Positions 36,765 through 63,594 of a stretch of DNA of 64,000 nucleotides are shown here, in pieces. Both the position numbers and the translations under genes were made by a program. The first letter of the stretch is position 1; each line of letters starts with the position of its first letter. Source of the stretch: Myxococcales bacterium (lineage in GTDB: Bacteria > Myxococcota_A > Polyangia > Polyangiales > Houyiibacteriaceae); assembly GCA_019637115.1 (NCBI GenBank), contig JAHBWH010000010.1, positions 18,494 through 82,493 on the forward strand. Reading direction: 5' to 3'. Below the pieces are notes generated by a model, which worked only from the letters and a program-made list of their open reading frames with translations, ran no database searches and was not told where the DNA came from.

Positions 36765-36844
36765 CCCAGAGGCAGGGCGAGCGCCTCCGCCAAGCTCGAC
36801 ATCGCGCGGGCAGAGGCGTTGCCCGCCCTTGGGCGTGACGGCAC

Positions 36845-40671: not shown

Positions 40672-40978
40672 GACACGAGCGTACGCGCTTCTTGCACGAC
40701 GAAGCCACCTCAGCGAGCGCCCCGACCGCGGAGCCGAGCAGAAGCGATGATGCGAGGGACCCACCGCGACTCCGGTAGGCGTGCTTGCCCACGCGGTCTC
40801 GTCGCGCATACTGGAGGCTCAATCGCGGCATCGGAGACGCTGCGCGGGAGCGGGGAGTGATCGAAGGTCGGCGGGTAGGGGGCGAGACCGACACGGTCGA
40901 GGTCGCGGCGAGGCAGGTCACCTGCTGCCGTCCCGGCAAGCGACACCACCTCTCCGCCCAACCGACGGCCGCACCCAC

Positions 40979-47224: not shown

Positions 47225-47251
47225 GAGAGGAGGGGCGCGTTCCTCGACCCG

Positions 47252-48247
47252 TCAGGCCGGCTTGCGGACCAAGAAGAAGTACATCGGCGTGAACGTGCCC
47301 GTCTCGCCGCCCGCGACCAGCGCGTCCGCGCCCTGGTTGAGGAAGCTGCTGACGTCGCTCGTTCCCTGCGGCGCGAGCTTCACCTTCTCCATGAAGCGCG
47401 TGAGCTTGTTCGTGAGCACGCGGCCGAGCGGCTTGCGCGGGAGCGCGAGCAGGCCCTTCTCCCGGCCCGTCAGCGGCAGATACCACGGCGTCTCGGGGCT
47501 CCCGTGGCCGGCCATGTCCTCGGTCTCCAGCACCTCGAAGCCCGCGTCGCGCAGCGCCGCGTCGACGACGCTCGTGTGTGAGAGGTCGGGCAGGCCATTG
47601 CCGATCTCGATGTCCTTCTTGATCTTCCGGTGCGTCGGGTCGCTCTCGTCGTAGCGGTCCGTGAGGCACCACTCGTAGCCTGCGAAGAGCGCGCCCGGCT
47701 TCATCGCGCGGTGCAGGCCGCGGAAGAGCTTCGTGCGGTCCGGCGCGTGGCAGCTCGCCTCGATGGTGTAGACGGCGTCGAAGCGCGCGTCCTCGAAGGG
47801 CAGCTCCATGAAGTCCGCCTTCGCGAAGCTGACGAGGTGGTCGAGGCGCTGCTTCCTCGCGTAGCGCTCGGCGCGCGCGACCTGGTAGGCGTTGTTGTTG
47901 ATCCCGACGATCTTCGCGCCGCTGCGCTTCGCGATGTGGCGCGCGGGCCCGCCGACGCCGCAGCCGACGTCAAGGACCTCCTTGCCAGGCGCGAGGCGGA
48001 GCGCGCGGTCGAGGTGGCGCTCGTGGCGCAGGAGGCTCTCCTTGAAGCCCTCCCACTTCCAGCGCGGCGCGAAGTGGAAGTGCTGGCCCCAGCCGATCTC
48101 GTAGAAGTCCGTCGCGAGGTCGTAGTACTGGTTGACGAGCGTCGTGTAGCTCGTGAGCCGCGTGTCGACGTCGCTCTGCTCGTGCAGGCCCTTGTAGGCG
48201 TCGACGGTGGACTTGAAGGACTCCTTGACGGTCTCGCGCTGCGCCAT
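47252..48247 (-). CDS. smt: sterol C-24 methyltransferase (Erg6/SMT family)
   Basis: YYDLATDFYEIGWGQHFHFAP, LDVGCGVGGP, GINNNAYQ, IEASCHAP, YEW, IEIGNGL, FTPMYFF. Confidence 0.93.
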   Translation of the reverse strand: MAQRETVKESFKSTVDAYKGLHEQSDVDTRLTSYTTLVNQYYDLATDFYEIGWGQHFHFAPRWKWEGFKESLLRHERHLDRALRLAPGKEVLDVGCGVGGPARHIAKRSGAKIVGINNNAYQVARAERYARKQRLDHLVSFAKADFMELPFEDARFDAVYTIEASCHAPDRTKLFRGLHRAMKPGALFAGYEWCLTDRYDESDPTHRKIKKDIEIGNGLPDLSHTSVVDAALRDAGFEVLETEDMAGHGSPETPWYLPLTGREKGLLALPRKPLGRVLTNKLTRFMEKVKLAPQGTSDVSSFLNQGADALVAGGETGTFTPMYFFLVRKPA

Positions 48248-48440
48248 CGTGCTTCTCGCATCGGCGCCGGGGCGCCTCGGTTGGGGAGCCCATCAGCGGG
48301 GCTCGAAGGTCGGTCGAAGGTCGGTCGGGGGTCGTGGACGAGAGCCTCGGAGGCTCGCAGGTCGTCGGGCTAACACGTGAGGCGCGCTCGCGCCTCGTGA
48401 TTTCGGCGTGGCCGGCGAACGCTGCGCCGGTCGCCGCCTC

Positions 48441-50537
48441 TCACTCCGCGGGCGGCGCAGGCGCGCGCTCCGCTGCCTCGCGCGCTTCGGGCGCGACGCC
48501 GAGGCGACGCTCGGCGAGGGCCAGCGCCCACACCGGGAAGAGCCGCCGGTAGAGGCGGTACTCGATCAGCGCGGTGCGGAAGAAGACACCCGCGAACTCC
48601 TGGATCGGGAAGTCGCCGCGCTCGTCCTGCACGGACGCGAGCCACTTCGCGCCCTTCGCGATGGGCTTCTCCTCGACGTCCTCGCCCGCGAGGAGCGTGA
48701 GCAGCGCCCACGCGGTCTGCGTGACGTGCCCGTGGCCGAGGTCCTCGTACGTGTCCGTGAGGCACGTCCGCCAATGCTCGCCCCAGCTCCCGTCGGGCCG
48801 CTGCCGCGCGCGCACGAAGGCGCACGCCTTGCGGATGGCGGGGTCGTCCGCCGACGCGCCCGCCGCGCGCAGGCCGCGCACGCCGAACATCGTCCCGTAG
48901 AGGAACCACACACCCCACGCGCCCGGCCACGAGCCGTCCGGCCGCTGCGTCTCTCGGAGCCGCGCCTCGGCGCGCGCGATCGCACCGTCGATCTCCGCGC
49001 GCATGAGCGTGGGGAAGCGCGCCCGCACCTCGCAGAGCGCGATGAGGTTCGATGCGGTGCACTCCACGTAGGAGAGCTCCGTCATCGAGTCGCCGAACAT
49101 CTCGGCGGGGTTCATCCACTCGAGGGTAAAGCGCTGCTTGCGCGCCTCGTAGCTGCCGAAGCCACCCTCGGGGTTCTGGCATTGCAGCAAGAAGCGCACG
49201 GCCGCCTCGACGGCGCGCTCGTCGAGCGTCGCCAGCGTCTCGGGCGCCTCGAGGAAGGCGCAGAGCGCCTCTGCGGTGCAGTCGCTGACCGGCCAGCCGT
49301 GCCACACACCCGCGAAGCAGAAGCCGCCCGTGGGGTCGACCCGGTATTGCTGGCGGTACTCGGCGACGCTGCCGCCGGGCGGACGCTGGATCTGCTGCGT
49401 CGCGAGCCAACCGAGACCCGTCGTCAGCGCCTCGTCGGCGAGCGCGCGCGTCTCGGGCGAGAGCGCCGGGCGCGCCGCGCTCAGCGCCTGGAGCGCGAAG
49501 CTCGTGTCCCAGGTGGCGCTCCGCGCGCCCGCGACGCGCGTGCCGTCCTGCGCGTCCTCCCAGAGCCAGCCCTCGAAGCGCTCCATCTGGCGCGCGACGT
49601 CGGGGTCGTGCTTGTCCCAGGCGTGCAGGGTGAGCGCGAAGAGCAGCCCGTTGACCGGCGAGAGGCACGTATGGTCCGTGCTGCGGAGCTCCCAGCGCAT
49701 GCGCTCGCGGATGCTCGCGAGGCACGCGCGTCGGATGGCGCCCGCGCCGGGGAGGAACGAGCGCAGCGCCTCGTAAGCGTTGACCGCCTTGTACATCGCC
49801 TCGAGCGCCGGCCCCGGCGGCGCCCAGAGGTCGCGCTCGCGCAAGAGCCCGCGCGCCGACGCGAAGTCGAGCGCCTCGTACTCGACGCGGCCGCTCTGGG
49901 CGTGGAAGGCGTAGATCTCCTGGCGGAGCTCGTCGGTGAGCGGGGTGCGCCGCGCGCGCAGCTTCAGCCCGTGCACGCTCGCCATGCCCATGTAGATGAG
50001 CCGCGTGTGGCAGTAGTAGTTGCCGGGGTGCACCGGCGAGGACGTGGGCATGAGCCACGCCTCGGGCGGCACGGCGTTGACGCCCTCCCAGCCGTAGAGG
50101 TTCATGATCGCGAGCCAGGCCTTGCCCCAGCTCGGGATCGCGCGGACGTCCTCGCGCGCGAAGAGCTCGCGCGCGAAGGCGAGCATCGGATCGTCCGCCG
50201 ACACGCCGAGGGTGCGCGCGGCCACGTACGCGAGCGTCGTCACGAAGAGCGACTCGCCCCCGTGCGGGTGCAGGCCCCAGCCCCCAGGCCGGCCGTCGGG
50301 TTGCGCGAGCTGCTCGGCGCGGAGCTGCTGCACGAGCGACGCGCGGCGGTCCGCGGAGAGCGGACGCTCCATCACGTGCATCGCGAGCGCGTATTGCGCC
50401 GCGAGCATCGGGTTCCAGACGTCCTCACCCTCCCAATGGTCGGCGGGGCGCGCGGCCTCGTCCGCGTGGCGCTCCTCGCCGCGCAGCGCGACGAGCCGCC
50501 GGACGGCGCGGTCGAGCGCCTCGCTCGTGGTCGCCAC
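48441..50537 (-). CDS. osc: 2,3-oxidosqualene cyclase
   Basis: GGWGLH, IPSWGKAWL, PPEAWL, YYCHTRLIY, HGWPVSDCTAE, YVECT, QW repeats (QRPDGSW x2); GTG directly after the HMGR stop. Confidence 0.93.
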   Translation of the reverse strand: MATTSEALDRAVRRLVALRGEERHADEAARPADHWEGEDVWNPMLAAQYALAMHVMERPLSADRRASLVQQLRAEQLAQPDGRPGGWGLHPHGGESLFVTTLAYVAARTLGVSADDPMLAFARELFAREDVRAIPSWGKAWLAIMNLYGWEGVNAVPPEAWLMPTSSPVHPGNYYCHTRLIYMGMASVHGLKLRARRTPLTDELRQEIYAFHAQSGRVEYEALDFASARGLLRERDLWAPPGPALEAMYKAVNAYEALRSFLPGAGAIRRACLASIRERMRWELRSTDHTCLSPVNGLLFALTLHAWDKHDPDVARQMERFEGWLWEDAQDGTRVAGARSATWDTSFALQALSAARPALSPETRALADEALTTGLGWLATQQIQRPPGGSVAEYRQQYRVDPTGGFCFAGVWHGWPVSDCTAEALCAFLEAPETLATLDERAVEAAVRFLLQCQNPEGGFGSYEARKQRFTLEWMNPAEMFGDSMTELSYVECTASNLIALCEVRARFPTLMRAEIDGAIARAEARLRETQRPDGSWPGAWGVWFLYGTMFGVRGLRAAGASADDPAIRKACAFVRARQRPDGSWGEHWRTCLTDTYEDLGHGHVTQTAWALLTLLAGEDVEEKPIAKGAKWLASVQDERGDFPIQEFAGVFFRTALIEYRLYRRLFPVWALALAERRLGVAPEAREAAERAPAPPAE

Positions 50538-50538
50538 G

Positions 50539-51825
<1,287 letters not shown>

Positions 51826-51953
51826 GAAATCCACTCCGGAGGAGGAAGCGGCCGCGATGGCGGCCATCGAGAGGAAGGGGCGAAGCCCCGTCGGGAGACG
51901 AAGCCTCGATCGCGGAGCGACCGAGGTGAGCGGGTGACCCTGGGTGGGTTGGC

Positions 51954-52045
51954 ACCCTGTGAGCCCTGTGAGCCCTATGAGCCGACACGCTGTGAGCCGG
52001 CACGCTATGAGCCGACACGCTGTGAGCCGACACGCTGTGGTGAGG
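51954..52045. repeat. intergenic minisatellite (two 9-mers then four 15-mers TGAGCCG(A/G)CACGCT(G/A))
   Basis: tgagccctg tgagcccta tgagccgacacgctg tgagccggcacgcta tgagccgacacgctg tgagccgacacgctg. Confidence 0.9.
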
Positions 52046-52141
52046 CGACGCCGAGTCGGGAGCGCTCGGGCTCGGGAGACTGGGATCGAAAGTTCGGAAA
52101 GAGCGAGAGAGAGGCGCCGCGCGGGGCGGCAACCCCGAAGG

Positions 52142-53290
52142 TCAGGCGGGCGAAGCGCCCTCGGAGGAGGCGGGCTTGGTGCCGATCTGGGTCAGACCGC
52201 CCTCGCCTTGGCTCGCGAGGTAGGCCTCCCATTTGCGGATCGTGACCTCTTGGAAGGCCTTCACGACCGGGTTGAGCTCCGCGAGGGGCGCGTCCCAGTG
52301 CATCTCGTAGCCCTCCTGCTCGGCCTCGACCGCGAGGCCGTCCTCACTGAGCAGGGGCTTGACCGTCAGCTCCTTCGCCGCCGGGAGGAACGCCTTCATC
52401 AGGCCCTTCGGGATCTCGAAGCTCGTGAAGGGGATGTTGAAGGCCTTGAAGTAGAAGACGAAGAAGCCGCGGGTCGTCCGCTCGTCGATCGGGAGCACGA
52501 AGAGCCAGTGCTTGATCTGATCGTCCGTGTTCGACCACTGGTAGGGGTACTCGTAGCCGAGGCGCATGTAGTTCGTGTTCACGCGCTTGCGGCTGACGAA
52601 GAGCTTGTTGAAGCGGCCCTGCCCGACCTTCGTGTCGTACTCGAGGTAGACGTTGTCGCCGACGGTCTCGTATTTGCGCAGCTCGGCGTCCTCGAAGGGT
52701 CGGAAGCGCCGGTGCAGGTAGGCGTGCGTGAAGTCCGACACGTTGTCGATGATCATCGAGTGGTGCGCCTTCCACGTGAAATCCGCGGAGATGCTTGGCC
52801 ACGCGTCGGGGCCCTCCAGCTCGGGCACGACCGGCAGCGCGACGCTCTGCGCGCGCTCGACGTCGCCCGGGAAGATCCAGATGAGGCCGTAGCGCTCCTG
52901 CACCGGGACCTCGGGCACCTTGAACTTCGGGAACTTCCGCCCGAAGAGGCTGTGCGGGATCTCGACCACGCGGCCGTCGCCGTCGTACGCCCAGCCGTGG
53001 TAGGGGCAGACGAGGTTGCAGCCGTCGACGTGGCCCGTCGTCAGCTTGAGCTGACGGTGCGCGCAGCGGTTCTCGACCGCGCGGATCTGACCGTCCTCAC
53101 CACGGAAGACCGCGATGCTCCGCTTCCAGAAGACCACCTCCTGGACACCGCCCGCCTTCACGTTCTTCGACCACTCGGCCGGGTACCAGTAGTTCGGGTC
53201 CATGCCGGCGGCGCGGACCTTCTGGCGCGTGTTCTTCGCCTCGGCGAACGACGGCGGGGGCTGGATGGGTTTGGTGTAACGGCTGCTCAT
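52142..53290 (-). CDS. Rieske non-heme iron oxygenase, probable sterol C-4 demethylase component (SdmA-like)
   Basis: CAH...CPYHGW Rieske motif; DNVSDFTHAYLH and ED mononuclear iron ligands. Specific function inferred from cluster context. Confidence 0.8.
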   Translation of the reverse strand: MSSRYTKPIQPPPSFAEAKNTRQKVRAAGMDPNYWYPAEWSKNVKAGGVQEVVFWKRSIAVFRGEDGQIRAVENRCAHRQLKLTTGHVDGCNLVCPYHGWAYDGDGRVVEIPHSLFGRKFPKFKVPEVPVQERYGLIWIFPGDVERAQSVALPVVPELEGPDAWPSISADFTWKAHHSMIIDNVSDFTHAYLHRRFRPFEDAELRKYETVGDNVYLEYDTKVGQGRFNKLFVSRKRVNTNYMRLGYEYPYQWSNTDDQIKHWLFVLPIDERTTRGFFVFYFKAFNIPFTSFEIPKGLMKAFLPAAKELTVKPLLSEDGLAVEAEQEGYEMHWDAPLAELNPVVKAFQEVTIRKWEAYLASQGEGGLTQIGTKPASSEGASPA

Positions 53291-53307
53291 GGGGAACTCG
53301 GCTCGCT

Positions 53308-54405
53308 TCAGGCGTGGATGGCTACGCCGTCCGGCGCGCGACGGACCGGCGCGCGGTCCTCGGGGGACTTGGCCTCGGGGTGCGTGATCGCGCCCCGGCT
53401 CCAGTGGAACGCGTAGGCCTCGGCGAAGGCATCCCGCATCGAGCTCGGGCGGAAGCCGAGCTCGTTCTGCGCCTTCGAGGTGTCGGCGTGGCGGCGCAGG
53501 CGGAGGCGCCGGATGGCGCCGGGGGTGAGCAGCTGCTGGCGCTTGGGCGCGAAGCGCGTGAGCAGGAAGCTCGAGATCTCGGCCGCGGGCAGGAGCGCCG
53601 CCGCCGGGACGCGGAAGCGCGGACGCGGCGCGCCCGTGATCTCCTCGAGCATGTCGAAGATGTGATCGAAGTCGAGGAACTGGGTCGCGACGATATACTT
53701 CTGGCCAGTGCGCCCGCGCTCCATCGCGCGCACGTGGCCGTCGACGATGTCGCGCGCCGCGACGAACTCGAAGCCGCCCGGCGAGTAGACGTTGAGCTCG
53801 CGGTTGGCGAACTTGCAGATCGTCGTGCCCATGCGCGAGGGCAGGTAGTCGTGGCCGCCGATGATCGCGCAGCTCGTGACGATGAGCGCGTCGAGCCCCT
53901 CGACGCAGGCCTTGAGCAGCTCGTGCTCCTGCAGGACCTTGCTGCGCTCGTAGGGCATCGCGCGGTGGTAAGGGTAAAACTGCCGCGTCTCGTCCGCAGG
54001 CTTCGACGTCTCGTCGAGGTCGTAGCCGACCGCCGAGAACGAGCTCGTGAGCACGAAGCGCTCGACGCCGGTCTCCTTGGCGGCCTGCATCAGGTAGCGC
54101 GCGCCGAGCACGTTCGTCTCGTAGATCGTGCGGCGGTGCTCGGCGTCGCCGTCGATCGTCGAGACCATCGACGCGACGTGGTAGACGCGGCGGCAGCCCT
54201 CGACGGCCTGGATGAGCGAGCCGCGATCGCGCAGATCGCCGTAGGCCTTCTCCACGCCGTGGAGGCCGTCGACGGCCTCCTCGTTCTCGCCGCGGCGCAG
54301 GAGGACACGCACGCGCTCGCCCTCCTCGACGAGGCGGTGCAGGAGGTTCGCGCCGAGGTGGCCGGTCGCGCCGGTGATCAGGGTGGGGGCGTCCTTGGCA
54401 GGCAT
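53308..54405 (-). CDS. extended SDR NAD-dependent epimerase/dehydrogenase, probable sterol C-4 decarboxylase/reductase (SdmB-like)
   Basis: ITGATGHLG, TSS, YERSK; TGATG-coupled to the upstream fusion gene. Confidence 0.8.
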   Translation of the reverse strand: MPAKDAPTLITGATGHLGANLLHRLVEEGERVRVLLRRGENEEAVDGLHGVEKAYGDLRDRGSLIQAVEGCRRVYHVASMVSTIDGDAEHRRTIYETNVLGARYLMQAAKETGVERFVLTSSFSAVGYDLDETSKPADETRQFYPYHRAMPYERSKVLQEHELLKACVEGLDALIVTSCAIIGGHDYLPSRMGTTICKFANRELNVYSPGGFEFVAARDIVDGHVRAMERGRTGQKYIVATQFLDFDHIFDMLEEITGAPRPRFRVPAAALLPAAEISSFLLTRFAPKRQQLLTPGAIRRLRLRRHADTSKAQNELGFRPSSMRDAFAEAYAFHWSRGAITHPEAKSPEDRAPVRRAPDGVAIHA

Positions 54406-57400
54406 CAGTGGACCGTCGCTTCGTGGGTGGAGCTCTCGAGCGCGGGCATGCGCCAGAGGGCGTCGTAACGTTGGCGGAGCGCCTCGTCCTTCGAGGCGTT
54501 CGAGAGGCAGTCGGCGATGAGCTCCTCGACCTCGGCCCGCGCGATCTTCACGGGGTTGCCCGCCGTGAACATCGCGTCGTTGCCTCGCGCGTGGACGAGC
54601 GTGCGCACGGCCATCCACAGCGGGAGCAGGCAGAAGAGGCGCATCGCGCCGTGCTCGGCCGGGATGGCGAGCACGTACTCGAGCGCGCGATCGAGGCGCG
54701 CCTGCGCGGTGTCGAAGAGCGGCGCGACCGCCGCGTGCGCGCGCTCGCGGACGGCGGGGTCGACGAGCGCGTCGATGGCGAGCCCCTGCAGGTTCGCGCT
54801 CGTGCGCGGGATGAAGCTGACGCGGCGCTCGCGGTCGTCGGTGATGTCCTTGAGGATGTTCACGAGCTGGAGGCCGACGCCGAAGGCCTCGGCCTCGGTG
54901 CGGAGCGCGTGCTCGGTGTCGGTGCCCGCGGCGCCCATGGCCTCGACGAAGAGGTCGGTGAGCATGTGGCCGACGGTGCCCGCGACGAAGTAGCAATAGC
55001 GCTCGAGATCTTCGACGGTGTAGAGCGCCGTGTAGCCGTCGTCGCCCGCCGTGCGGTGCGAGTAGAGCTGCATGCCGCGCGTCATCTCCGCGACCCACCG
55101 CGTCGCCTTCGTCTGCATGCCCTTGGGCAGGCCCCGGAAGACGCGGAGCACGGTGCCGAGGTGCTGGCAGAGGTCGTTCTCGACCTGGTTGCCCTCCACG
55201 CCGCGGAACTGATCCTCGAAGCGGCGCACGACCTCGTCGTCGGGGCTCGCGTAGAGCGCCGCGAGGAAGGTCTCGTAGCGGGCGTCGCGCTCCTCCACGG
55301 TGAAGAAGGCGTTGTCCTCGATCGTGTCGGCGATGCGACAGAGCAGGTAGCCGCAGGTGACGGCGGTACGCAGGTCGCCGGGGAGCATCTCGATCGGCCG
55401 CGCGAAGGAGCGCGAGACCGCGAGCAGGCTCTCGCGACAATAGGCCACGTCCTCGGAGCTCGCCTTCGCGGCGCGGCGCCCCTTGGCGGGCATCACGCGC
55501 GTAGCGCGCTTGTCGCGGTAGAGGTGCAGCGCGTCGGAGGCCTCGGCCCCGAGCGCGACCGACTCGCCGAGCGACGCGAGCCCGCGCTCGATGGCCTCCC
55601 AATGCGGGGCCTCGCTCGCGAGCAGCGCGCGGCAGACGATCGCCGTCGTGCGCGCCCCGCCGAAGCTGCCGTCCTCGCGCTGGCCGGCGACGAGCACCCG
55701 CACCGCCCGCCGCAGGCGCGGGTGGAAAGGAGGCAGCCCCGAGGCGTGGAGCAGCTCGAGCGCGAGCGCGGTGCCCATGAGCCCGCCCTCGAACGCGCCG
55801 TCGCTCCGCTGCGCGCGGCGGAGCTGGTCGGCGAAGCGCGCCCACGCGCCGTCGATGACGCCGGGCAAGAGCCCGGGGAAGCGGGCGCGGGCCCGGCGCA
55901 TGGCGACCGCCGCGTCGCGGCGCGCGCCGAGGTTGCGCGTCGCGTCGGCGGCCTCGACGAGCTGAGGCACGAGGCGCACCGCGTCGTCGAGCCGATGCTG
56001 CGCGACGGCGCCCTCGAGCTCGAGCGCGAGGCGGCTCGCCGGCTCGGCGGGCGCGAGATCGGCGGCGTCCGTGACGCGGGCGAGCAGCGCGTCGACGTCG
56101 ACGCTCACGCTGGGCGTCGCGCCCTCGGTGGGCGAGGGCAGCACGGGCGCCGGCGGCGTGATCCCAGCACCACGCAGCGGGTGGAGGCGCGTGCCCACGC
56201 GGCGCCACTTCTCGCGGAGGCGGCGGGGGACGAGCGTCGCGCCCGGCCACTGCGCCCACTCGGCGAAGCGCGCGAGCTCGTGCGGGAGCCGGCGCAGCGC
56301 CTTGTCCGCGACGACCTGCTGCGTCGTGTCCTGGACCGCGCGGCGCGCGACGTTGACGAACGCCCCGCCGAATTGGTCGAGGCGGACCTCGTCACCCGCG
56401 AGGATGCGCATCGTGCGCACGCGCTCGGCGGGCTCGTCGCGCCAGGTGTCGAAGACGGCGCTGCGGATCGCGACCGCGCTCTCGTCCTCGCGCATGAAGA
56501 CCTGGAAGAGCGCGTTGACGAGCAGCTCGGAGACGTAGCTCTGCGGCTCGCGCGTCTGGCGGTACTCCTCGAGCGTCGCGCTCGAGAGCAGCGTGTCTGT
56601 GTCCTTGAGCGCCACCGTGATGCCCGTCGCCGTGAGCGGGTGGCAGAAGCCGACGGCGTCGCCGACGAGCGCGACGCGGCCCGCGCCGTAGAAGGTGCGC
56701 GGGAGGAAGCGGTTGCTCGCCCAGATGATCTTGTCCTGCTCGAGCGCGCGCTTGTACGCGGGGCGGAGCGTCTCGGGGAAACGCGAGGCGAAGGCGTCCC
56801 AGAGGTAACGCGCGTCGCGGCGCGCCCCCGGGGTGCCTGCCGGGATGTCGACGCACGCGCGGACCCGATCCTCGGCGATCCGGTAGAGCAGGATGGCGCC
56901 CGGCCCGCCGAGCAGCACGTGGCCATAGCCCTCGAAGGGCATCTCGATGCCGTGCAGCTCGATGCCCGCCATGTGCGAGATGAGCTCGGCCTCGTCCTCC
57001 TGCCGCAGGCTCTTGCGCACGACGCTCGAGCGGCCGTCGGCGGCGATGATGCGCCCCGCGGCGATCGTGTGCTCGCGGCCGCCGTGGGTGAAGGTGACCT
57101 TCTCGCCCGCGACGCCCGAGACGCGCGCGTGCTCGAGGTAGGTGACGCCGGGCGTCGCGGCGGCGGCGCTGCGGAGCGACTCCACGAGGTCGCCGTGCTC
57201 GCACGAGAAGCCGACGGTCCCGTCCGCGTAGTCGAGCTGGACGGCCTCCGAGCCGTCGTCGGGGAAGACGGCGAAGCCGTAGCAGGGGGTGTGCTTGGAG
57301 GTCGCCGCGTGCGGGAAGAGGCCGTACTTGCGGAGGACGTCGCCGCCGGTCGGGTGAATCCACTCACCCGCGAAGCGCGAGGACGCGCGGGGGTTCGCCT

Positions 57401-57518
57401 CGAGGAGCAGGACGGCGGCGCCCTGACGGGCGTATCCGACGGCGGCGGCGGATCCGGCGGGGCCCCCGCCGACGACGATTACGTCGTAGCTCGGCTCGAT
57501 GGTCGCGTTTTCGCTCAT
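54405..57518 (-). CDS. fusion: squalene monooxygenase + degenerate QW-repeat barrel + squalene/phytoene synthase
   Basis: N: GGGPAG, AGEWIHPTG, ADGRSS, GDAVGFCHPLTATG. Middle: QRSDGAF, QREDGSFG. C: VSRSF, YLLCRIADTIED, YCYFVAGTVG, LQLVNILKDITDD. Confidence 0.88.
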   Translation of the reverse strand: MSENATIEPSYDVIVVGGGPAGSAAAVGYARQGAAVLLLEANPRASSRFAGEWIHPTGGDVLRKYGLFPHAATSKHTPCYGFAVFPDDGSEAVQLDYADGTVGFSCEHGDLVESLRSAAAATPGVTYLEHARVSGVAGEKVTFTHGGREHTIAAGRIIAADGRSSVVRKSLRQEDEAELISHMAGIELHGIEMPFEGYGHVLLGGPGAILLYRIAEDRVRACVDIPAGTPGARRDARYLWDAFASRFPETLRPAYKRALEQDKIIWASNRFLPRTFYGAGRVALVGDAVGFCHPLTATGITVALKDTDTLLSSATLEEYRQTREPQSYVSELLVNALFQVFMREDESAVAIRSAVFDTWRDEPAERVRTMRILAGDEVRLDQFGGAFVNVARRAVQDTTQQVVADKALRRLPHELARFAEWAQWPGATLVPRRLREKWRRVGTRLHPLRGAGITPPAPVLPSPTEGATPSVSVDVDALLARVTDAADLAPAEPASRLALELEGAVAQHRLDDAVRLVPQLVEAADATRNLGARRDAAVAMRRARARFPGLLPGVIDGAWARFADQLRRAQRSDGAFEGGLMGTALALELLHASGLPPFHPRLRRAVRVLVAGQREDGSFGGARTTAIVCRALLASEAPHWEAIERGLASLGESVALGAEASDALHLYRDKRATRVMPAKGRRAAKASSEDVAYCRESLLAVSRSFARPIEMLPGDLRTAVTCGYLLCRIADTIEDNAFFTVEERDARYETFLAALYASPDDEVVRRFEDQFRGVEGNQVENDLCQHLGTVLRVFRGLPKGMQTKATRWVAEMTRGMQLYSHRTAGDDGYTALYTVEDLERYCYFVAGTVGHMLTDLFVEAMGAAGTDTEHALRTEAEAFGVGLQLVNILKDITDDRERRVSFIPRTSANLQGLAIDALVDPAVRERAHAAVAPLFDTAQARLDRALEYVLAIPAEHGAMRLFCLLPLWMAVRTLVHARGNDAMFTAGNPVKIARAEVEELIADCLSNASKDEALRQRYDALWRMPALESSTHEATVH

Positions 57519-57849
57519 GATTTCTCCCGTCGACTTCGATGGGCACAAGCTCGAAGGCCTGTGGCGCGCGCCCCTCCGGACGGACTCGATCCCGGGCTGG
57601 GGTAGCAAGGGCGGGGGCGGACAGGGTCCCCAATCGGGTGAGCGGGGCGCGCCAGCAGGCGAGCCGTCGACCCTCCCAGGTGAATCGGGTTCTAGCGAGC
57701 GCGCCTCACGAAGGCGTGTTCCTTAGCGGTTACGGTAGGTTACGCGCCAGAAACATGTTCGCCGGGGCTAGGAGGGGCCCCGCGATCGTGTCAGCGCCTC
57801 GGCTCTCGGCGAGGCGTGTGGCTACGAGCCTTTCGTGTACGCTGCGAGC

Positions 57850-58230
57850 ATGACGCATGACCGCCTCATCCCATGCGCTGCTTGTGGGGCCCACGTCCGC
57901 GCGGCGGAGCCGTGCCCCTTCTGCGGCGGAGAGGGCGCGCACGACGGGTCGGCGCCCCGCGGCACCCGCGGCGGCGTGGTCGCCGCTTCGCTCCTGGCCC
58001 TCTCGGCGTGCGCGAGCCCGAGCCCCGAGCTCCCGCCCGAGCACGACACGGGCGACGAGGTCGTCGTGGAGACGCTGCCCTCACCGGAGGACGACGAAGA
58101 CCGGATCGTCGACGGAGAGCCGCCCGCCGAGGAGCTCGTCGGACCGCCCGAACCTCCGCCCGCGGCGGCCTACGGCGGCCCGCCCGACGACATGATCATG
58201 CAGCCGATGTACGGCATCGCGCCGGAATGA
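57850..58230 (+). CDS. putative splicease substrate: zinc ribbon + lipobox + acidic/Pro linker + two XYG motifs
   Basis: CAACGAHV...CPFC, LLALSAC, AAAYGGPP, QPMYGIAPE; ATGA overlap with the radical SAM gene. Confidence 0.8.
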   Translation: MTHDRLIPCAACGAHVRAAEPCPFCGGEGAHDGSAPRGTRGGVVAASLLALSACASPSPELPPEHDTGDEVVVETLPSPEDDEDRIVDGEPPAEELVGPPEPPPAAAYGGPPDDMIMQPMYGIAPE

Positions 58231-59525
58231 GCGCCGAGGTGCCGTCCGCGCTCGTGCGCCACACGAGCCACGGCGACGGACCGCGCTACGTGGTCTGGGA
58301 GATCACGCTCCGCTGCGATCTCGGCTGCAAACACTGCGGCTCGCGCGCTGGCCACGCGCGGGACGACGAGCTCTCGACCGACGAATGTCTGGACGTCGTC
58401 GGGCAGCTCCACGAGCTCGGCGTCGCGGAGGTCACGCTCATCGGCGGGGAAGCGTACCTCCGCGAGGATTGGGATCTCATCGCGCGCGCGATCACCGACC
58501 GCGGGATGCGCTGCGGCATCACGACGGGCGGGCGCGGGCTCGACGACGATCGCGTGCGCCGCGCCGTCGACGCGGGCGTCTCGACGATCTCGGTCTCGAT
58601 CGACGGGCTCGAGCGCACGCACGATCTGCAGCGAGGCGCGACGGGATCGTTCCGCGCGGCGCTCGACGCCTGCGAGCGGATCGCGAAGAGCTCGATGCGG
58701 CTCGCGACGAATACGCAGATCAACCGGCTCTCGATGCCCGAGCTCGTCGCGCTCGCCGACCTGCTGCACGAGGTCGGCTCGAAGGCGTGGCAGATCCAGC
58801 TCACCGTGCCGATGGGGCGCGCCGCCGATCGGGCGGACCTCCTGCTGCAGCCGCACGATCTGCTCGAGCTCTTCCCGCTGCTCGTCTGGATCAAGCGCGA
58901 GAAGCTCACGCCGCGCGACATCCGGCTCTTCCCCGGCAACAACATCGGGTACTTCGGGCCCTACGAGCAGGAGCTTCGCTACGGGGGCGCGAGCGGCACG
59001 CACTGGACCTCCTGCGGCGCGGGGCGCGCGTGCCTCGGGCTCGAGTCCGACGGCAAGCTCAAGGGTTGCCCTTCGTTGCCGACCGATCGCTACGGCGGCG
59101 GCCTCGTGCGGGAGACGCCGATCGCCGAGCTGATCCGGCGCGAGCCCATCGCACACCTCGGCGCCCGCACCGCGGCGGATCTCTGGGGGTATTGCGGGAC
59201 CTGCTACTACGCCGACGTCTGCCGCGCCGGCTGCAGCTGGACCGGACACGTGCTCATGGGCCGGCCGGGCAACAACCCCTACTGCATCCATCGCCAGCTC
59301 GACCACGAGCGACGAGGCCTGCGCGAGCGCCTCGTGCGCGTCGAGACCGCCCCGGGCGTGCCCTTCGACCACGGCCGATTCACGACCGAGCTCGAGCCGC
59401 TCGGGCCCGCCCCCGAGCGCGCGACGATCCTCGGCGTCGACCTCGCCGAGGTGCTCGCGATGGGGCGTGAGCGGGCTGGCGCGTTCGACGCGCCGGAGAG
59501 CAAACGGCGGCTCCGCGTCGTCTGA
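58227..59525 (+). CDS. radical SAM/SPASM enzyme, PlpX/PcpX-type tyramine splicease
   Basis: VWEITLRCDLGCKHCGSRAG, VTLIGGEAYLREDW, TTGG, WQIQLTVPMG, PGNNIGYFGPYE, CGAG...KGCPSLP, LWGYCGTCYYADVCRAGCSWT...GNNPYC. Confidence 0.88.
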   Translation: MSAEVPSALVRHTSHGDGPRYVVWEITLRCDLGCKHCGSRAGHARDDELSTDECLDVVGQLHELGVAEVTLIGGEAYLREDWDLIARAITDRGMRCGITTGGRGLDDDRVRRAVDAGVSTISVSIDGLERTHDLQRGATGSFRAALDACERIAKSSMRLATNTQINRLSMPELVALADLLHEVGSKAWQIQLTVPMGRAADRADLLLQPHDLLELFPLLVWIKREKLTPRDIRLFPGNNIGYFGPYEQELRYGGASGTHWTSCGAGRACLGLESDGKLKGCPSLPTDRYGGGLVRETPIAELIRREPIAHLGARTAADLWGYCGTCYYADVCRAGCSWTGHVLMGRPGNNPYCIHRQLDHERRGLRERLVRVETAPGVPFDHGRFTTELEPLGPAPERATILGVDLAEVLAMGRERAGAFDAPESKRRLRVV

Positions 59526-59679
59526 AGGTCAGAGCTCGAGTCGGAGCGCCGGGAGGCTGCCGTCCGCGATGGGGCGTGAGCGGGCAGGCGCGTTCGATGT
59601 GCCGGAGAGCCAACGGCGGCTCCGCGTCGTTTGAGGTCAGAGCTCGAGTCGGAGCGCCGGGAGGCTGCCGTCCGCGATG
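59456..59679. repeat. ~109-bp tandem duplication spanning both convergent stop codons
   Basis: Unit starting cgcgatggggcgtgagcggg at 59456 and 59565; a few substitutions and one indel. Confidence 0.95.
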
Positions 59680-60989
59680 CCGCCGCCGATCGTGAGCAGA
59701 CCGACGCGGGCCGCGTCGTTCGTCACGAGCGCCGGCGCGCGCGCGACGTCGTCGTCCCAGCCGCCCAAGGGGAGCAGCTCCGCGTCCGATTGTGCGAGGC
59801 AACCGAGCGCCTCTGAGGCCGAGGCCGTGACCTCGACCGCCTCGAGGGAGACGCGCGTCAGCCCCGCGACGCCGAGCGCGCCGACCGAGAGCAGCACGCC
59901 GATCCGGGGGTGGTCGACGAGGCTCACGCCGCGCAGGACGTTCGGCCCGCTCGGGTCGAGCACCTGGACTCCGTCGCCCATCTCGACCGCGCCCGCTTCG
60001 CCGAGCAGCGTGGTCCGAAGGACCGTGCGCGCGACCTCGACGCCCTCGAGGCGCACGTCCGCCGACGCGACCGAGGCGACGCCGACCGCGCCGTTTTCGT
60101 CGGCGCGCCCGCCCGTCCAGGTGACGTCGCTGCTGCGCTGGATCCACGCGCCGCCGAAGCGATGACCGCGGACCACGAGGTCGCGATGAGCCCCGTGGCT
60201 CTCGTGGTGGAGCAGCCCGAGGTCCGCCGCGGAGATCTCGACGTCGCTCGTCTCGAGGCGCGCGTCGCCGACCGCCACGAGCCCATAGGCCGGGAGCAGC
60301 TGCCGCCCCGGCCGGACATCGTCGATGACGAGCCCCTCGAGCGTCGCTTCGCTCGCCTCGACGTAGATCGCGGTCCCGACGAGCTCGCGGACCGAGCCGC
60401 CTCGCCAGACGAGCGTCGAGTTCGCGACGATGGCGCCCCACGGGCCCACCTGGACGGCGTCGAGCTCCACGATCGACACGTCCCGAGCGTCCAGCACCGC
60501 GAGCCCGATGGCGCTCTCCGTCGGCTCCGCCAAGGGCGGGAAGCTCGCGGGGTCGTCCACGCCGACGACGCGAACGCGCGAGACGACGACATCGTCCGCG
60601 CGCACCGCGAGGCCGACCCCGCGTCGCACGGAGATCTCCACGTCCTCGACGCGCGCGCCCGCGCCGAGCGCGCGGACGCCATGGCCCGCGTCCACCACGA
60701 CCCGGAGGCTCCGCAGCGCGGCCCCCGCGGCGAGCGTGACCACGGCCTCGTCCCCCACGAGCTCGCTGCCCGCGACGCCCTCGAGCGCGACCCGCTCGGG
60801 CACTCGGAGCGTGGCGCCCTCGACGCGGCACGGGCCCACGCGGACGACGGCGCCCGCCGAGGCGCGGTCGAGCGCCTCCTGGAGCGCTTCGGCGTCGCAG
60901 ATGCCGTCATCCCCACACGCGGCGAGGAGCCCCGCGACGACCAACGCCGCGGGGAGGAAGGGGCTCGGACCGATGCGACGCGGACGCAT
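59637..60989 (-). CDS. right-handed beta-helix lipoprotein
   Basis: LLAAC lipobox; ALQEALDRASAGAVVRVG; repeated G/V/I-rich strand pattern. Confidence 0.8.
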   Translation of the reverse strand: MRPRRIGPSPFLPAALVVAGLLAACGDDGICDAEALQEALDRASAGAVVRVGPCRVEGATLRVPERVALEGVAGSELVGDEAVVTLAAGAALRSLRVVVDAGHGVRALGAGARVEDVEISVRRGVGLAVRADDVVVSRVRVVGVDDPASFPPLAEPTESAIGLAVLDARDVSIVELDAVQVGPWGAIVANSTLVWRGGSVRELVGTAIYVEASEATLEGLVIDDVRPGRQLLPAYGLVAVGDARLETSDVEISAADLGLLHHESHGAHRDLVVRGHRFGGAWIQRSSDVTWTGGRADENGAVGVASVASADVRLEGVEVARTVLRTTLLGEAGAVEMGDGVQVLDPSGPNVLRGVSLVDHPRIGVLLSVGALGVAGLTRVSLEAVEVTASASEALGCLAQSDAELLPLGGWDDDVARAPALVTNDAARVGLLTIGGGIADGSLPALRLEL

Positions 60990-61136
60990 GCGCCCGACAT
61001 ACCCGCTCGAGGGCCCCCCGTCACCCGGGCGCCAGCAGGGATTAATCGCATTAGCGGTCGCCGAAGCCGCCTCGCTCGCGGCCGCCCAGGCGCTCGGGGG
61101 AGGCGGCGGGCCACCGACCTCGTCGGCCCACGGAGT

Positions 61137-63200: not shown

Positions 63201-63594
63201 CGCAGATCGGTACGTCGCCGCGCGACCATGGTCAACGCGCGCCGAGGCGGAGGCGCCCTGCCACGTGCTCACGACGGCGCCCATCGCGCAGCAGGCGACG
63301 TGAGCTGGCCTGCGCAGCGCTGCGCCCCAGCAGCGCCGTGTTGGGTCACCGCGCTCAACCGCGGCACAGCGAATGCCACTCACCACGTTCGCGACCCGAA
63401 TCTAATCGAGTTAATCGATAGCCAGTCCACGTATGAGGACACCCGCTCGCACGGCAACATGCTGGTTTCCACAAAACGCAAACCAAGTTCCACCGCGCCC
63501 GACGGGCGCCGACCAATAACTCGCATGGCCCCTCGGCGGCTCCCATAACGCCGCCACCGCCGGCGATGACCGAACGCCGAAGAGGGAGTGAACC

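What the first reader, a model, noticed from the sequence alone, without database searches (positions are those of the whole stretch)
54405..57518. Single polypeptide fusing squalene monooxygenase, a cyclase-like remnant and squalene synthase
Seen: one uninterrupted ORF of about 1037 aa. The N-terminal FAD monooxygenase has squalene-epoxidase signatures (AGEWIHPTG, GDAVGFCHPLTATG; compare GExLQPGG and GDAxNxRHPLTGGG in SQLE/Erg1). The C-terminal head-to-head prenyl synthase has both Asp-rich motifs (DTIED, NILKDITDD). Established: SQS and SMO catalyse consecutive steps (FPP to squalene to 2,3-oxidosqualene) and are normally separate proteins; SMO-OSC fusions have been reported in some myxobacteria. 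Inference: this is an 'oxidosqualene synthase' that may channel squalene. I do not know of a characterised SMO-SQS fusion.
Basis: partly seen in the sequence, partly recalled or inferred. Interest (0 to 1): 0.9.

Follow-up and report, generated by a model that had tools for sequence, protein, structure and literature searches.

The report
Natural squalene epoxidase–squalene synthase fusion enzyme
One bacterial gene joins the enzyme that makes squalene to the enzyme that epoxidises it, linked by a decayed piece of a sterol cyclase; the fusion is real and common in myxobacteria, but I found no paper that describes it.

Summary
The ORF is real: minus strand, 57518..54405, 1037 aa, with coding-type GC3 throughout. 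Contigs from four studies show no indel in it.

Residues 1-447 are a squalene epoxidase: Pfam SE 101 bits, best PDB hit human SQLE at 7e-28. Residues 686-1037 are an SQS-type squalene synthase: SQS_PSY 145 bits, best PDB hit human SQS at 3e-18.

Residues 448-685 are a non-catalytic cyclase relic. They align with the window's own oxidosqualene cyclase at 39% identity over 96 aa, E 7e-13.

The gene heads a sterol operon: fusion, SdmB, SdmA, HMG-CoA reductase, OSC, sterol methyltransferase. It holds the genome's only full-length squalene-epoxidase match and its only SQS-type synthase.

The architecture is conserved. All 120 listed homologues carry both enzyme domains, with long, medium or no spacer. 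Relatives carry overlapping split SMO|SQS genes.

A long-form orthologue is D187_003106 of sterol-producing Cystobacter fuscus. It was published only as "SE". Ten literature searches found no description of the fusion.

Likely function: FPP to squalene to 2,3-oxidosqualene. Channelling is untested.

The parts
54405..57518 (-). Whole fusion gene, 1037 codons plus TGA stop
   Evidence: ORF and translation. (GC3 0.95, uniform along the frame). (contigs from four studies, no indel in the ORF).
57519..57535 (-). Ribosome-binding region (GGGAG-type) just upstream of the ATG
   Evidence: sequence read. Homologues begin at the same place in alignment A1.
56178..57518 (-). N-terminal FAD squalene monooxygenase (SMO) domain, residues 1-447
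   Evidence: Pfam FAD_binding_3 at 11-311 and SE at 158-375. Best PDB hit is human squalene monooxygenase 6c6n, E 7e-28 over residues 11-356; the next family scores 1e-9.
57453..57470 (-). GxGxxG dinucleotide-binding motif (G17-G22)
   Evidence: translation. G22 is invariant and G17/G19 nearly invariant in 120 homologues.
57345..57371 (-). AGEWIHPTG motif (res 50-58)
   Evidence: Aligned with GEFLQPGG of human SQLE. A50, G51, E52 and H55 are invariant in 120 sequences.
56622..56663 (-). GDAVGFCHPLTATG motif (res 286-299)
   Evidence: Aligned with GDAYNMRHPLTGGG of human SQLE. G286, D287, G290, H293, A297 and G299 are invariant.
55464..56177 (-). Middle spacer, residues 448-685: a reduced, non-catalytic cyclase-derived domain
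   Evidence: Alignments A1 and A3. The spacer profile hits SHC 1gsz at 2e-18 and human lanosterol synthase 1w6k at 7e-15. No DCTAE-like motif occurs in 0 of 120 spacers. Mean pairwise identity is 0.38, against 0.60 and 0.66 for the enzyme domains.
55635..55907 (-). OSC-like core of the spacer (res 538-628), with two Q-x-x-D-G-[AS]-F hairpin repeats
   Evidence: BLASTP against the window's own OSC, residues 538-633: 39% identity, E 7e-13. hhalign probability 97.8%, E 8.4e-13.
54408..55463 (-). C-terminal squalene synthase (SQS) domain, residues 686-1037
   Evidence: Pfam SQS_PSY at 700-993, 145 bits. The best NCBIfam model is squal_synth over its whole length, 109.7 bits but below its cut-off of 286.75. 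The best PDB hits are human SQS 3asx/1ezf, E 3e-18 over residues 7-338 of the domain; CrtM and phytoene synthase match only locally.
55314..55328 (-). First Asp-rich motif, DTIED (731-735)
   Evidence: Aligned with DTLED of human SQS. D731, E734 and D735 are invariant in 120 sequences.
54969..54998 (-). YCYFVAGTVG segment (841-850)
   Evidence: Aligned with YCHYVAGLVG of human SQS. Y841, C842 and V845-G850 are invariant.
54834..54860 (-). Second Asp-rich motif, NILKDITDD (887-895)
   Evidence: Aligned with NIIRDYLED of human SQS. N887-D891 and T893-D895 are invariant.
53308..54405 (-). Next gene: SdmB-like NAD-dependent sterol C-4 demethylation protein. Its ATG overlaps the fusion's stop (TGATG).
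   Evidence: overlap. Pfam Epimerase/3Beta_HSD. NCBIfam SdmB 310 bits, below its cut-off of 600.
52142..53290 (-). SdmA-like Rieske 4-methylsterol monooxygenase
   Evidence: Pfam Rieske + VanA_C. NCBIfam NF052579 413 bits, below its cut-off of 600.
50539..51867 (-). HMG-CoA reductase (start codon uncertain)
   Evidence: Pfam HMG-CoA_red 353.9 bits.
48441..50654 (-). Oxidosqualene cyclase, the consumer of the fusion's predicted product (start codon uncertain)
   Evidence: Pfam SQHop_cyclase_N + C. NCBIfam osq_cycl 641 bits against hopene_cyclase 199.5 bits; it passes TIGR01787. It is the only cyclase match in the genome.
47252..48292 (-). Sterol methyltransferase-like gene, last gene of the cluster
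   Evidence: Pfam Sterol_MT_C 87 bits plus methyltransferase domains.

Best explanation
This is a bifunctional enzyme of bacterial sterol synthesis.

Proposed mechanism:
- The C-terminal SQS-type domain joins two farnesyl diphosphates head to head and reduces presqualene diphosphate with NAD(P)H to squalene.
- The N-terminal FAD monooxygenase epoxidises that squalene to 2,3-oxidosqualene.
- The oxidosqualene cyclase encoded four genes downstream in the same operon then cyclises it.
- The 238-residue spacer is a reduced, non-catalytic remnant of an oxidosqualene-cyclase-type alpha/alpha hairpin domain. It acts at least as a folded linker.

Shown here: domain identities, conservation of the catalytic motifs, genomic context, the lack of other candidate copies in the genome, the fused/split gene pattern in relatives, and sterol production by an organism that carries a long-form orthologue.

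Inferred: both activities, the product, and any advantage of the fusion such as co-localisation, fixed 1:1 stoichiometry or hand-over of the insoluble intermediate. The protein has no predicted transmembrane helix, so it would work as a peripheral membrane enzyme; that too is inference.
For: 1. Specific homology.
- SE 101.4 bits and SQS_PSY 145.2 bits.
- Human SQLE is the best solved relative of the N domain, at 7e-28 against 1e-9 for the next family.
- Human SQS is the best solved relative of the C domain, at 3e-18 over the full length.
- NCBIfam squal_synth scores 109.7 bits over the whole model. HpnD, CrtB and HpnC score 47-59 bits and match only partly.

2. Motifs aligned to the human enzymes are invariant in 120 of 120 fused homologues: D731/E734/D735, Y841, D891/D894/D895, S702-R703-F705, G286-D287 and G51-E52.

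3. Context.
- The operon runs fusion, SdmB, SdmA, HMGR, OSC, SMT, with a stop/start overlap.
- The same gene order occurs in L021 and L022.
- A cyclase lies within 6 kb in 9 of 10 fused genome loci.

4. Own genome (98.2% complete).
- SE gives one real match, the fusion. A second match is only 20.5 bits over 37 positions.
- SQS_PSY gives two matches: the fusion and a CrtB/HpnD-like gene.
- There is one cyclase, and it is OSC-type.

5. Rosetta-stone pattern.
- Relatives in the same family carry SMO and SQS as separate genes in the same order.
- In G017 the two genes overlap by 11 nt.
- I counted 6 such split loci among 80 genome loci and about 32 among 80 metagenome loci.

6. The orthologue P0130 is D187_003106 of Cystobacter fuscus DSM 2262.
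- It is 46% identical to the window protein in both enzyme blocks.
- It is the 'SE' gene listed for a strain that was shown to make squalene and cycloartenol (Wei et al. 2016, PMC4919349, Tables 3-4; passages seen).

7. Purifying selection in this frame: 28 of 34 variable sites across four runs are third codon positions.
Against: - No activity data exist for any member.
- The C domain does not reach NCBIfam's equivalog cut-off for squalene synthase (109.7 against 286.75 bits).
- At the position that by my own count corresponds to Tyr195 of human SQLE, the family has an invariant Phe (F82). The numbering is recalled, not taken from a tool.
- The genome has 7 fatty-acid-hydroxylase-family genes above the Pfam cut-off. 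An alternative epoxidase of that superfamily cannot be excluded.
- A second SQS_PSY gene exists.
- Loci with both an SMO-OSC fusion and an SMO-spacer-SQS fusion show that one SMO domain may not be the whole story in some organisms.
- No RNA evidence was obtained.
- Channelling has no support beyond the fusion itself.
Confidence: 0.75

Rival explanations
1. Only one half works. The protein is a squalene synthase carrying a dead or regulatory flavoprotein domain, or an epoxidase carrying a dead synthase domain. The other step is done elsewhere, for example by the CrtB/HpnD-like gene or by an alternative epoxidase of the fatty-acid-hydroxylase family.
For: - A second SQS_PSY gene is present.
- Seven FA_hydroxylase genes are present.
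- F82 stands where human SQLE has a Tyr. This rests on my own count from the alignment, and the residue number is recalled.
- The squal_synth equivalog cut-off is not met.
Against: - The motif residues of both domains are invariant in 120 of 120 homologues.
- Mean pairwise identity is 0.60 for the N domain and 0.66 for the C domain.
- Both domains persist as intact separate genes in the split relatives.
- The second SQS_PSY gene scores best as a phytoene synthase and only 32 bits on squal_synth.
- HpnCDE would need two extra SQS_PSY genes, and only one was found.
Confidence: 0.1
2. Both halves are active but the chemistry differs from FPP to squalene to 2,3-oxidosqualene. Examples are another C30 or C40 head-to-head product, double epoxidation to 2,3;22,23-dioxidosqualene, or oxidation of a different isoprenoid.
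For: - The family is only 30-40% identical to characterised enzymes.
- It falls below the curated SQS cut-off.
- Some loci carry two SMO domains, which could mean divided labour.
Against: - SQS is the best match over the full length, while CrtM and CrtB match only a 70-90-residue core.
- The operon holds an OSC-type cyclase and sterol-tailoring genes.
- C. fuscus, with an orthologue, makes squalene and cycloartenol.
Confidence: 0.1
3. Artefact: two or three neighbouring genes were merged by a sequencing or assembly error, or the ORF is a chance open frame in high-G+C DNA.
For: - A mirror ORF of equal length is open on the other strand.
- One C. fuscus assembly lists the orthologue as two proteins of 529 and 650 aa.
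- Split gene pairs exist in relatives.
Against: - GC3 is 0.88-1.00 in one frame across both junctions.
- Contigs from four studies carry the same uninterrupted frame.
- 120 of 120 listed homologues from many assemblies have both domains in one protein.
- These include complete Cystobacter genomes.
Confidence: 0.01

Closest known systems
Stand-alone squalene synthase (human FDFT1, PDB 3asx/1ezf/3vj8; Trypanosoma cruzi 3wca)
   Same: The whole catalytic domain aligns, E 3e-18. Both Asp-rich motifs, the SRSF flap, the YC-x-x-VAG segment and the FC-x-x-P segment are conserved.
   Different: There is no C-terminal membrane anchor; no 19-residue window exceeds a Kyte-Doolittle score of 1.45. The domain is fused behind an epoxidase. 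It scores below NCBIfam's SQS equivalog cut-off.
Squalene monooxygenase / Erg1 (human SQLE catalytic domain, PDB 6c6n)
   Same: The FAD fold and SE domain align over about 350 residues, E 7e-28. The GE-x-x-x-P-x-G and GD-x-x-x-x-x-HP-x-T-x-x-G motifs are conserved.
   Different: There are no eukaryotic regulatory N-terminus and no membrane hairpins. Phe replaces one Tyr (my own count). The domain is covalently linked to SQS.
D187_003106 of Cystobacter fuscus DSM 2262 (P0130), listed as 'SE' by Wei et al. 2016
   Same: Same three-part architecture, with 46% identity in both enzyme blocks. It lies two locus-tag numbers from the strain's OSC (D187_003104), and the strain makes cycloartenol.
   Different: It is the long form (1163 aa), with a spacer about 110 residues longer that passes Pfam SQHop_cyclase_C; its 90%-identity cluster mate P0084 scores 32 bits.
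SMO-OSC fusion proteins seen in genome data (e.g. L020, L040, L045)
   Same: The N-terminal SE domain is followed by cyclase sequence. The window's spacer matches their cyclase part best, at up to 63 bits.
   Different: Their cyclase is complete (both Pfam halves at ~170 bits). SQS is a separate gene. Their SMO domains form a separate branch. I found no paper that describes them.
Class II triterpene cyclases (SHC 1gsz; human lanosterol synthase 1w6k)
   Same: The spacer profile matches their QW-type helical hairpin repeats, E 2e-18 and 7e-15. Profile positions 123-281 correspond to OSC residues 480-689.
   Different: Only part of one toroid is left. There is no DCTAE-type acid motif in 0 of 120 spacers. 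In the window's clade about 100 further residues are missing.
Split, overlapping SMO|SQS gene pairs of related Polyangia genomes (e.g. G017, L028, L030)
   Same: Same two enzymes in the same order, with the same downstream HMGR and OSC. In G017 the 11-nt overlap means a single frameshift separates the fused and split states.
   Different: Two polypeptides, and no spacer.

Membership tests
Squalene/phytoene synthase superfamily (Pfam PF00494) | Profile match above the gathering score | tested here: met
   145.2 bits against a cut-off of 26; residues 700-993 cover profile positions 3-260 of 263.
Squalene synthase proper (NCBIfam TIGR01559 equivalog) | Score above the curated equivalog cut-off | tested here: not met
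   109.7 bits against 286.75. It is nevertheless the best model and the only full-length one: HpnD scores 58.7, CrtB 51.2 and HpnC 47.3.
Squalene synthase proper | Two Asp-rich Mg-diphosphate motifs and the catalytic Tyr segment, aligned to a solved SQS | tested here: met
   DTIED/DTLED, NILKDITDD/NIIRDYLED and YCYFVAGTVG/YCHYVAGLVG align in the comparison with 3asx. They are invariant in 120 sequences. The roles of these residues are recalled from the literature.
Squalene synthase proper | NAD(P)H-dependent conversion of FPP to squalene | not testable with these tools
   Needs an enzyme assay or heterologous expression.
Squalene epoxidase (Pfam PF08491 SE + FAD_binding_3) | Profile matches above the gathering scores | tested here: met
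   SE 101.4 bits against 20.1; FAD_binding_3 78.3 bits against 22.
Squalene epoxidase | Closest solved structure is a squalene monooxygenase rather than another group A flavin monooxygenase | tested here: met
   6c6n scores E 7e-28; the next hit, VisC, scores 1e-9.
Squalene epoxidase | Epoxidation of squalene at C2-C3 | not testable with these tools
   Supported only indirectly: an OSC-type cyclase is in the operon, and this is the only full-length SE match in the genome.
Triterpene cyclase domain (Pfam PF13243 SQHop_cyclase_C), for the spacer | Profile match above the gathering score | tested here: not met
   The window protein scores 10.8 bits; the spacer alone scores 14.3 bits, E 0.021; the cut-off is 26.1. 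Long-form homologues pass: P0033 at 37.8, P0084 at 32.0 and P0036 at 27.1 bits.
Triterpene cyclase domain, homology only | Significant pairwise or profile similarity to a bona fide cyclase | tested here: met
   E 7e-13 against the window's own OSC. hhalign probability 97.8%. The spacer profile against PDB SHC gives 2e-18 and against OSC 7e-15.
Triterpene cyclase, as an enzyme | Complete two-toroid fold with a catalytic acid motif (DCTAE in OSC, DxDD in SHC; motifs recalled) | tested here: not met
   Only 238 residues remain. A DCTAE-like motif occurs in 0 of 120 spacers and DxDD in 8 of 120. Even the five longest homologues examined show only partial matches of 75-125 residues at most (four of them); the fifth shows none.

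The most novel reading that the evidence does not exclude
The spacer is the decayed C-terminal half of an oxidosqualene cyclase. On this reading the family descends from a single polypeptide that carried epoxidase, cyclase and squalene synthase together (SMO-OSC-SQS), that is, FPP to protosterol on one chain.

Today's forms would then record its stepwise dismantling: long spacer, then medium spacer (this window), then no spacer, then two overlapping genes. The relic may survive because it still does something, such as docking the free-standing OSC or handing squalene between the two active sites.

Evidence in favour:
- The spacer matches OSCs better than SHC-like cyclases. Bit scores are 33-63 for the cyclase part of SMO-OSC fusions and 31-48 for free OSCs with a hit (11 of 12), against 25-37 for SHC-like cyclases with a hit (5 of 6).
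- The match is colinear with OSC residues 480-690, on the side that faces the SQS domain.
- On the outgroup-rooted tree the long forms branch first, and the split forms are nested among fused ones (AU test p 0.014).

Evidence against, or missing:
- No complete triple fusion was found. Nothing over 1815 aa turned up, and the five longest members have only partial cyclase matches or none.
- The root rests on long branches.
- The SMO domains of SMO-OSC fusions are a separate lineage.
Probability: 0.25. Interest if true: 0.75.

Novelty: new variant of a known kind. Interest (0 to 1): 0.6.

Why it matters
- Myxobacterial sterol genes are central to current arguments about where eukaryotic sterol synthesis came from. 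A covalent link between the last oxygen-free step (SQS) and the first oxygen-requiring step (SMO) is a rare genomic character. Together with its cyclase relic and its split derivatives, it could help to order events in that history.
- It also affects annotation and gene counts. These proteins are named either 'squalene monooxygenase' or 'squalene/phytoene synthase family protein'. Surveys that score SQS and SMO as separate genes may therefore miscount.
- A soluble, anchor-free, single-gene route from FPP to 2,3-oxidosqualene would be useful for making triterpenoids in bacteria.
- The long, medium, short and split series is a ready-made natural experiment on whether fusion improves flux through a water-insoluble intermediate.

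Tried and rejected
Structure and binding
There is therefore no model, no fold search, and no test of whether the spacer is folded or touches either domain.
- The protein-atlas search held neither the query nor the stored homologue P0020.
The contigs of P0138, P0153, P0163 (spacer + SQS without SMO) and P0194 (SMO + spacer) could therefore not be inspected. They may be true two-domain genes, fragments or frameshifts. The metagenome scan with P0138 found no close copy; the best match was 67% identical over part of the query.

Expression
- No RNA holder was listed by the look-up of sequencing runs. This says nothing about expression.

Promoters and terminators
- The consensus scan found 0 promoter-like sites and no terminator-like site on the minus strand in 46800-58000. 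This is uninformative.

Triple fusion
- Nothing over 1815 aa scored E <= 1e-20. The tool itself says this is weak evidence.
- The five longest family members examined carry only partial cyclase matches or none.

Gemmatimonadota
- Some loci were reported as matching both halves of the query. In my ORF check they held only an SQS ORF at E <= 1e-15, so they were not counted as fusions.

Phylogeny
- The AU test under the mixture model did not finish in three calls.
- I then ran it on 33 of the 70 rows under LG+G4, leaving out the very long branch L041. The group tested was named after I had seen the tree, which weakens p = 0.014.
- The hint that SMO domains of SMO-OSC fusions score lower when a second SMO is present rests on 5 against 5 related sequences, with one exception (80.5 bits).

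Literature
- Ten searches found no description of a natural SMO-SQS fusion.
- In nine papers I saw only the passages around my search terms: PMC10152446, PMC12146001, PMC8237579, PMC7306690, bioRxiv 10.1101/2024.11.01.621555 (25), PMC4919349, PMC12414744, PMC10202945 and PMC10161426.
- Supplements are closed. The supplementary texts and tables of Hoshino & Gaucher 2021 and of Lee et al. 2023 could mention fused genes.
- Subscription papers, for example Bode et al. 2003, were not searchable.

Report

Full report
**1. The ORF**

The window is about 72% G+C, so long open frames occur on both strands. At this place a 1067-aa frame is open on the minus strand (54405..57608) and a 1065-aa mirror frame on the plus strand.

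Only the minus frame reads like protein:
- From the ATG at 57518 it gives 1037 residues.
- GC by codon position is 0.73/0.52/0.95.
- In 150-nt windows GC3 stays at 0.88-1.00 from residue 8 to the stop, with no dip across the middle part.
- A GGGAG-type ribosome site precedes the ATG.
- The TGA stop overlaps the ATG of the next gene as TGATG.
- Homologues start at the same position.

**2. Assembly**

The stretch occurs in DNA runs of at least five studies at half or more of its sampled words. I laid four runs from four studies on 54300-57700:
- One 27,968-nt contig (X1) spans the whole stretch with 24 substitutions and no gap.
- Contigs of X4 and X5 bridge both domain junctions (55463/55464 and 56177/56178) without gaps. 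A contig of X6 bridges the first junction.
- The only indel listed lies at 54348, in the next gene.
- The four 'joints' listed each come from a single contig with 21-24 letters on the shorter side. The tool warns that these are probably foreign.

Of the 34 variable places inside the ORF, 28 are third codon positions. In the spacer the figure is 11 of 14. One of the runs may be the window's source, so this is not four fully independent confirmations. The homologues below settle the point.

**3. The two enzyme domains**

Pfam:
- FAD_binding_3 at 11-311.
- SE (squalene epoxidase) at 158-375: 101.4 bits, cut-off 20.1.
- SQS_PSY at 700-993: 145.2 bits, cut-off 26.

Solved structures:
- The N part hits human squalene monooxygenase 6c6n at 7e-28 over residues 11-356. 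The next family scores only 1e-9.
- The C part hits human squalene synthase (3asx, 1ezf, 3vj8) at 3e-18 over its full length. Dehydrosqualene and phytoene synthases match only a core of 70-90 residues.

NCBIfam ranks squal_synth first and over the whole model, at 109.7 bits. HpnD, CrtB and HpnC reach 47-59 bits. The curated equivalog cut-off of 286.75 is not met.

The alignments place DTIED on DTLED, NILKDITDD on NIIRDYLED, YCYFVAGTVG on YCHYVAGLVG and VSRSF on TSRSF of human SQS. They place AGEWIHPTG and GDAVGFCHPLTATG on the matching SQLE motifs. All of these residues are invariant in an alignment of 120 fused homologues. The catalytic roles of these residues are recalled from the literature, not from a call.

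No 19-residue window exceeds a Kyte-Doolittle mean of 1.45, so no transmembrane anchor is predicted.

**4. The middle part**

On this protein Pfam's cyclase model scores only 10.8 bits, or 14.3 bits (E 0.021) for the spacer alone. By itself that is not evidence. Several other results are:
- In longer homologues the same region passes the cut-off: P0033 37.8, P0084 32.0 and P0036 27.1 bits.
- A profile of 12 spacers, the window's included, hits squalene-hopene cyclase 1gsz at 2e-18 and human lanosterol synthase 1w6k at 7e-15. Profile positions 123-281 correspond to OSC residues 480-689.
- The profile aligns with the window's own OSC at hhalign probability 97.8%, E 8.4e-13.
- The window's spacer alone aligns with the window's OSC at 39% identity over 96 residues, E 7e-13. 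Fusion residues 538-628 correspond to OSC residues 538-633.
- An SHC-type representative gives only 8e-6.
- Against cyclases in the fetched loci, the spacer scores 33-63 bits on the cyclase part of SMO-OSC fusions (11 of 11 hit). It scores 31-48 bits on free OSCs (11 of 12 hit) and 25-37 bits on SHC-like cyclases (5 of 6 hit).

The spacer has no DCTAE-like motif in 0 of 120 family members, and DxDD in only 8 of 120. It is far too short for the two-toroid fold. It is therefore cyclase-derived but not a cyclase.

It evolves faster than the enzyme domains. Mean pairwise identity is 0.38, against 0.60 and 0.66. It keeps a regular pattern of conserved Gly, Thr-Ala, Arg-Arg-Ala and Leu positions.

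In a search of 1.84 billion representatives, full-length single-stretch matches to the spacer profile were found mainly in proteins of ~1130-1200 aa, at positions ~445-790. A few shorter proteins of 552-810 aa carried the spacer with only one enzyme domain. Ordinary cyclases matched only the repeat unit.

**5. Context and copy number**

Downstream on the same strand lie five genes:
- an SdmB-like dehydrogenase;
- an SdmA-like Rieske oxygenase;
- HMG-CoA reductase;
- an oxidosqualene cyclase (osq_cycl 641 bits against hopene cyclase 199.5 bits);
- a sterol methyltransferase-like gene.

In the window's own genome (8.88 Mb, 98.2% complete):
- The SE model finds only the fusion, plus a 37-position match of 20.5 bits.
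- The cyclase model finds only the operon's OSC.
- SQS_PSY finds the fusion and one other gene. That gene scores best as a phytoene synthase or HpnD, and only 32 bits on squal_synth.

An OSC needs 2,3-oxidosqualene, and the fusion is the only conventional source of it that I can find.

Caveat: there are seven fatty-acid-hydroxylase-family genes above the Pfam cut-off. Alternative epoxidases of that superfamily are known (recalled).

**6. The family**

The word-indexed search returned 180 hits at E <= 0.001, of which 120 were listed. All 120 have at least 380 residues aligned to the N part and at least 300 to the C part.

Spacer lengths fall into three classes:
- 100 residues or fewer: 10 proteins.
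- 200-299 residues: 29 proteins, including the window at 238.
- 300 residues or more: 81 proteins.

Source names, where given, are Myxococcota, Polyangiales, Sandaracinaceae, Deltaproteobacteria and Cystobacter.

Among 80 loci from species-representative genomes, my ORF check found:
- 10 with SMO and SQS in one frame, all with myxobacterial labels;
- 6 with adjacent separate SMO and SQS genes;
- 11 with an SMO-OSC fusion, four of them directly upstream of an SMO-spacer-SQS gene and four in Gammaproteobacteria;
- 3 with an SQS-cyclase fusion.

Among 80 metagenome loci, chosen by likeness to P0138 and therefore not a frequency estimate, 13 were fused and about 32 were split and adjacent.

In G017, a genome of the window's own family, the SQS start codon lies 8 nt before the SMO stop. 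A single frameshift therefore separates the split and fused states.

Gene order around the fusion is conserved. L021 and L022 repeat fusion, SdmB, SdmA, HMGR, OSC. In 9 of 10 fused genome loci a cyclase lies within the 6-kb flank.

**7. Evolution (inference)**

I built a tree of concatenated SMO+SQS rows: 70 rows, LG+C20 PMSF, quick search. It was rooted on seven 'SMO-OSC plus separate SQS' rows.
- Long-spacer forms branch first.
- The window sits in a starred clade of 14 medium-spacer rows that includes an 'uncultured Sandaracinus sp.' record.
- Eight of the nine split pairs form one starred clade inside the fused radiation.

A constrained tree that holds all fused rows together was rejected at p-AU 0.014. 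That test used 33 rows under LG+G4, omitted L041, and tested a group named after the tree had been seen.

SMO domains of SMO-OSC fusions form their own branch.

The simplest reading is a long spacer, then shortening or loss, then fission. The root depends on long branches, however, and the tool gave long-branch warnings.

**8. What is known**

P0130, a 1163-aa member of the P0084 cluster, is D187_003106 of Cystobacter fuscus DSM 2262. Its sources name it 'hypothetical protein', 'Squalene monooxygenase' or 'squalene/phytoene synthase family protein'.

Wei et al. 2016 (PMC4919349) list exactly this locus tag as the strain's squalene epoxidase homologue, next to OSC D187_003104. They report squalene and cycloartenol from the strain. 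The words 'fusion' and 'fused' do not occur in the main text. It is the only paper in the library that holds that tag.

Passages of eight further papers did not mention a natural SMO-SQS fusion. They cover bacterial sterol and triterpene evolution and engineering.

The protein is thus on record and has been counted as an epoxidase. As far as I could search, its three-part nature has not been described or tested. Supplements were closed.

**9. Verdict**

The two-step 'FPP to oxidosqualene' reading is well supported by sequence and context, but it has not been tested biochemically. The cyclase relic is real. Channelling is only an idea.

The thing is a new variant of known enzymes, and it is widespread rather than unique.

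Noticed in passing
window 54408-57605 (+): A 1065-aa open frame mirrors the fusion gene on the opposite strand. It has no coding-type composition and looks like a by-product of 72% G+C, so ORF length alone is unreliable in this window.
   Followed up: partly
window 47252-54405 (-): The rest of the sterol operon: SdmB-like, SdmA-like Rieske oxygenase, HMG-CoA reductase, oxidosqualene cyclase and a sterol methyltransferase-like gene (Sterol_MT_C 87 bits). This predicts C-4 demethylated, side-chain-methylated sterols in an uncultured sludge/bioreactor myxobacterium.
   Followed up: partly
window 35706-38378 (+): A Zn-dependent alcohol dehydrogenase is followed by a 538-aa protein with a C-terminal fatty-acid-hydroxylase domain (ERG3/ERG25 superfamily). 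It could be a further sterol-tailoring enzyme 16 kb from the operon. The genome has 7 such genes above the Pfam cut-off.
   Followed up: no
window 57873-59525 (+), 59637-63386 (-): Divergent from the fusion gene lies a radical SAM/SPASM peptide maturase (nif11-class/GDL-type, 479 bits, below its cut-off). Beyond it are two large ORFs without family, one with a faint beta-helix match. This is probably an unrelated RiPP locus.
   Followed up: no
L020, L037, L040, L044 (Myxococcota); L045, L047, L049, L070 (Gammaproteobacteria): These loci hold single ORFs of ~1140-1290 aa (stop to stop) that fuse a squalene epoxidase domain to a complete oxidosqualene cyclase, with SQS as a neighbouring separate gene. 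I found no paper that describes them.
   Followed up: partly
L018, L025, L027, L031, L033: An SMO-OSC fusion lies directly upstream of an SMO-spacer-SQS fusion, giving two epoxidase domains per locus. The SE score of the OSC-linked copy is lower in 4 of these 5 (23-57 bits; one scores 80.5) than in five SMO-OSC fusions that are the sole SMO (82-96 bits). This hints at relaxed constraint. The sample is small and the sequences are related.
   Followed up: partly
L056, L060 (Amycolatopsis), L078, L182, L185: Open frames in these loci join an SQS domain to an SHC-like cyclase (25-28% identical to the OSC). All three pairwise fusions among SQS, SMO and cyclase therefore occur in nature.
   Followed up: no
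P0138, P0153, P0163, P0194; P0126 + P0134 (Cystobacter fuscus): P0138, P0153 and P0163 (657-696 aa) carry spacer + SQS without SMO. P0194 (810 aa) carries SMO + spacer. One C. fuscus assembly lists the orthologue as two proteins of 529 and 650 aa with consecutive accessions. These could be real fission at the other junction, frameshifts or fragments; I could not tell which.
   Followed up: partly
L001 (G000:C388) 1483-2592 (+): The genome's second SQS_PSY gene is CrtB/HpnD-like. It carries an inserted run of GAPT-type repeats between its two halves and sits next to a GlmU-like gene rather than in a carotenoid cluster.
   Followed up: no
window 31886-34126 (+) and 40751-42850 (+): A 747-aa protein with three MopE-type copper-binding motifs, and a MASE11 hybrid histidine kinase/response regulator, lie upstream of the sterol region.
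   Followed up: no
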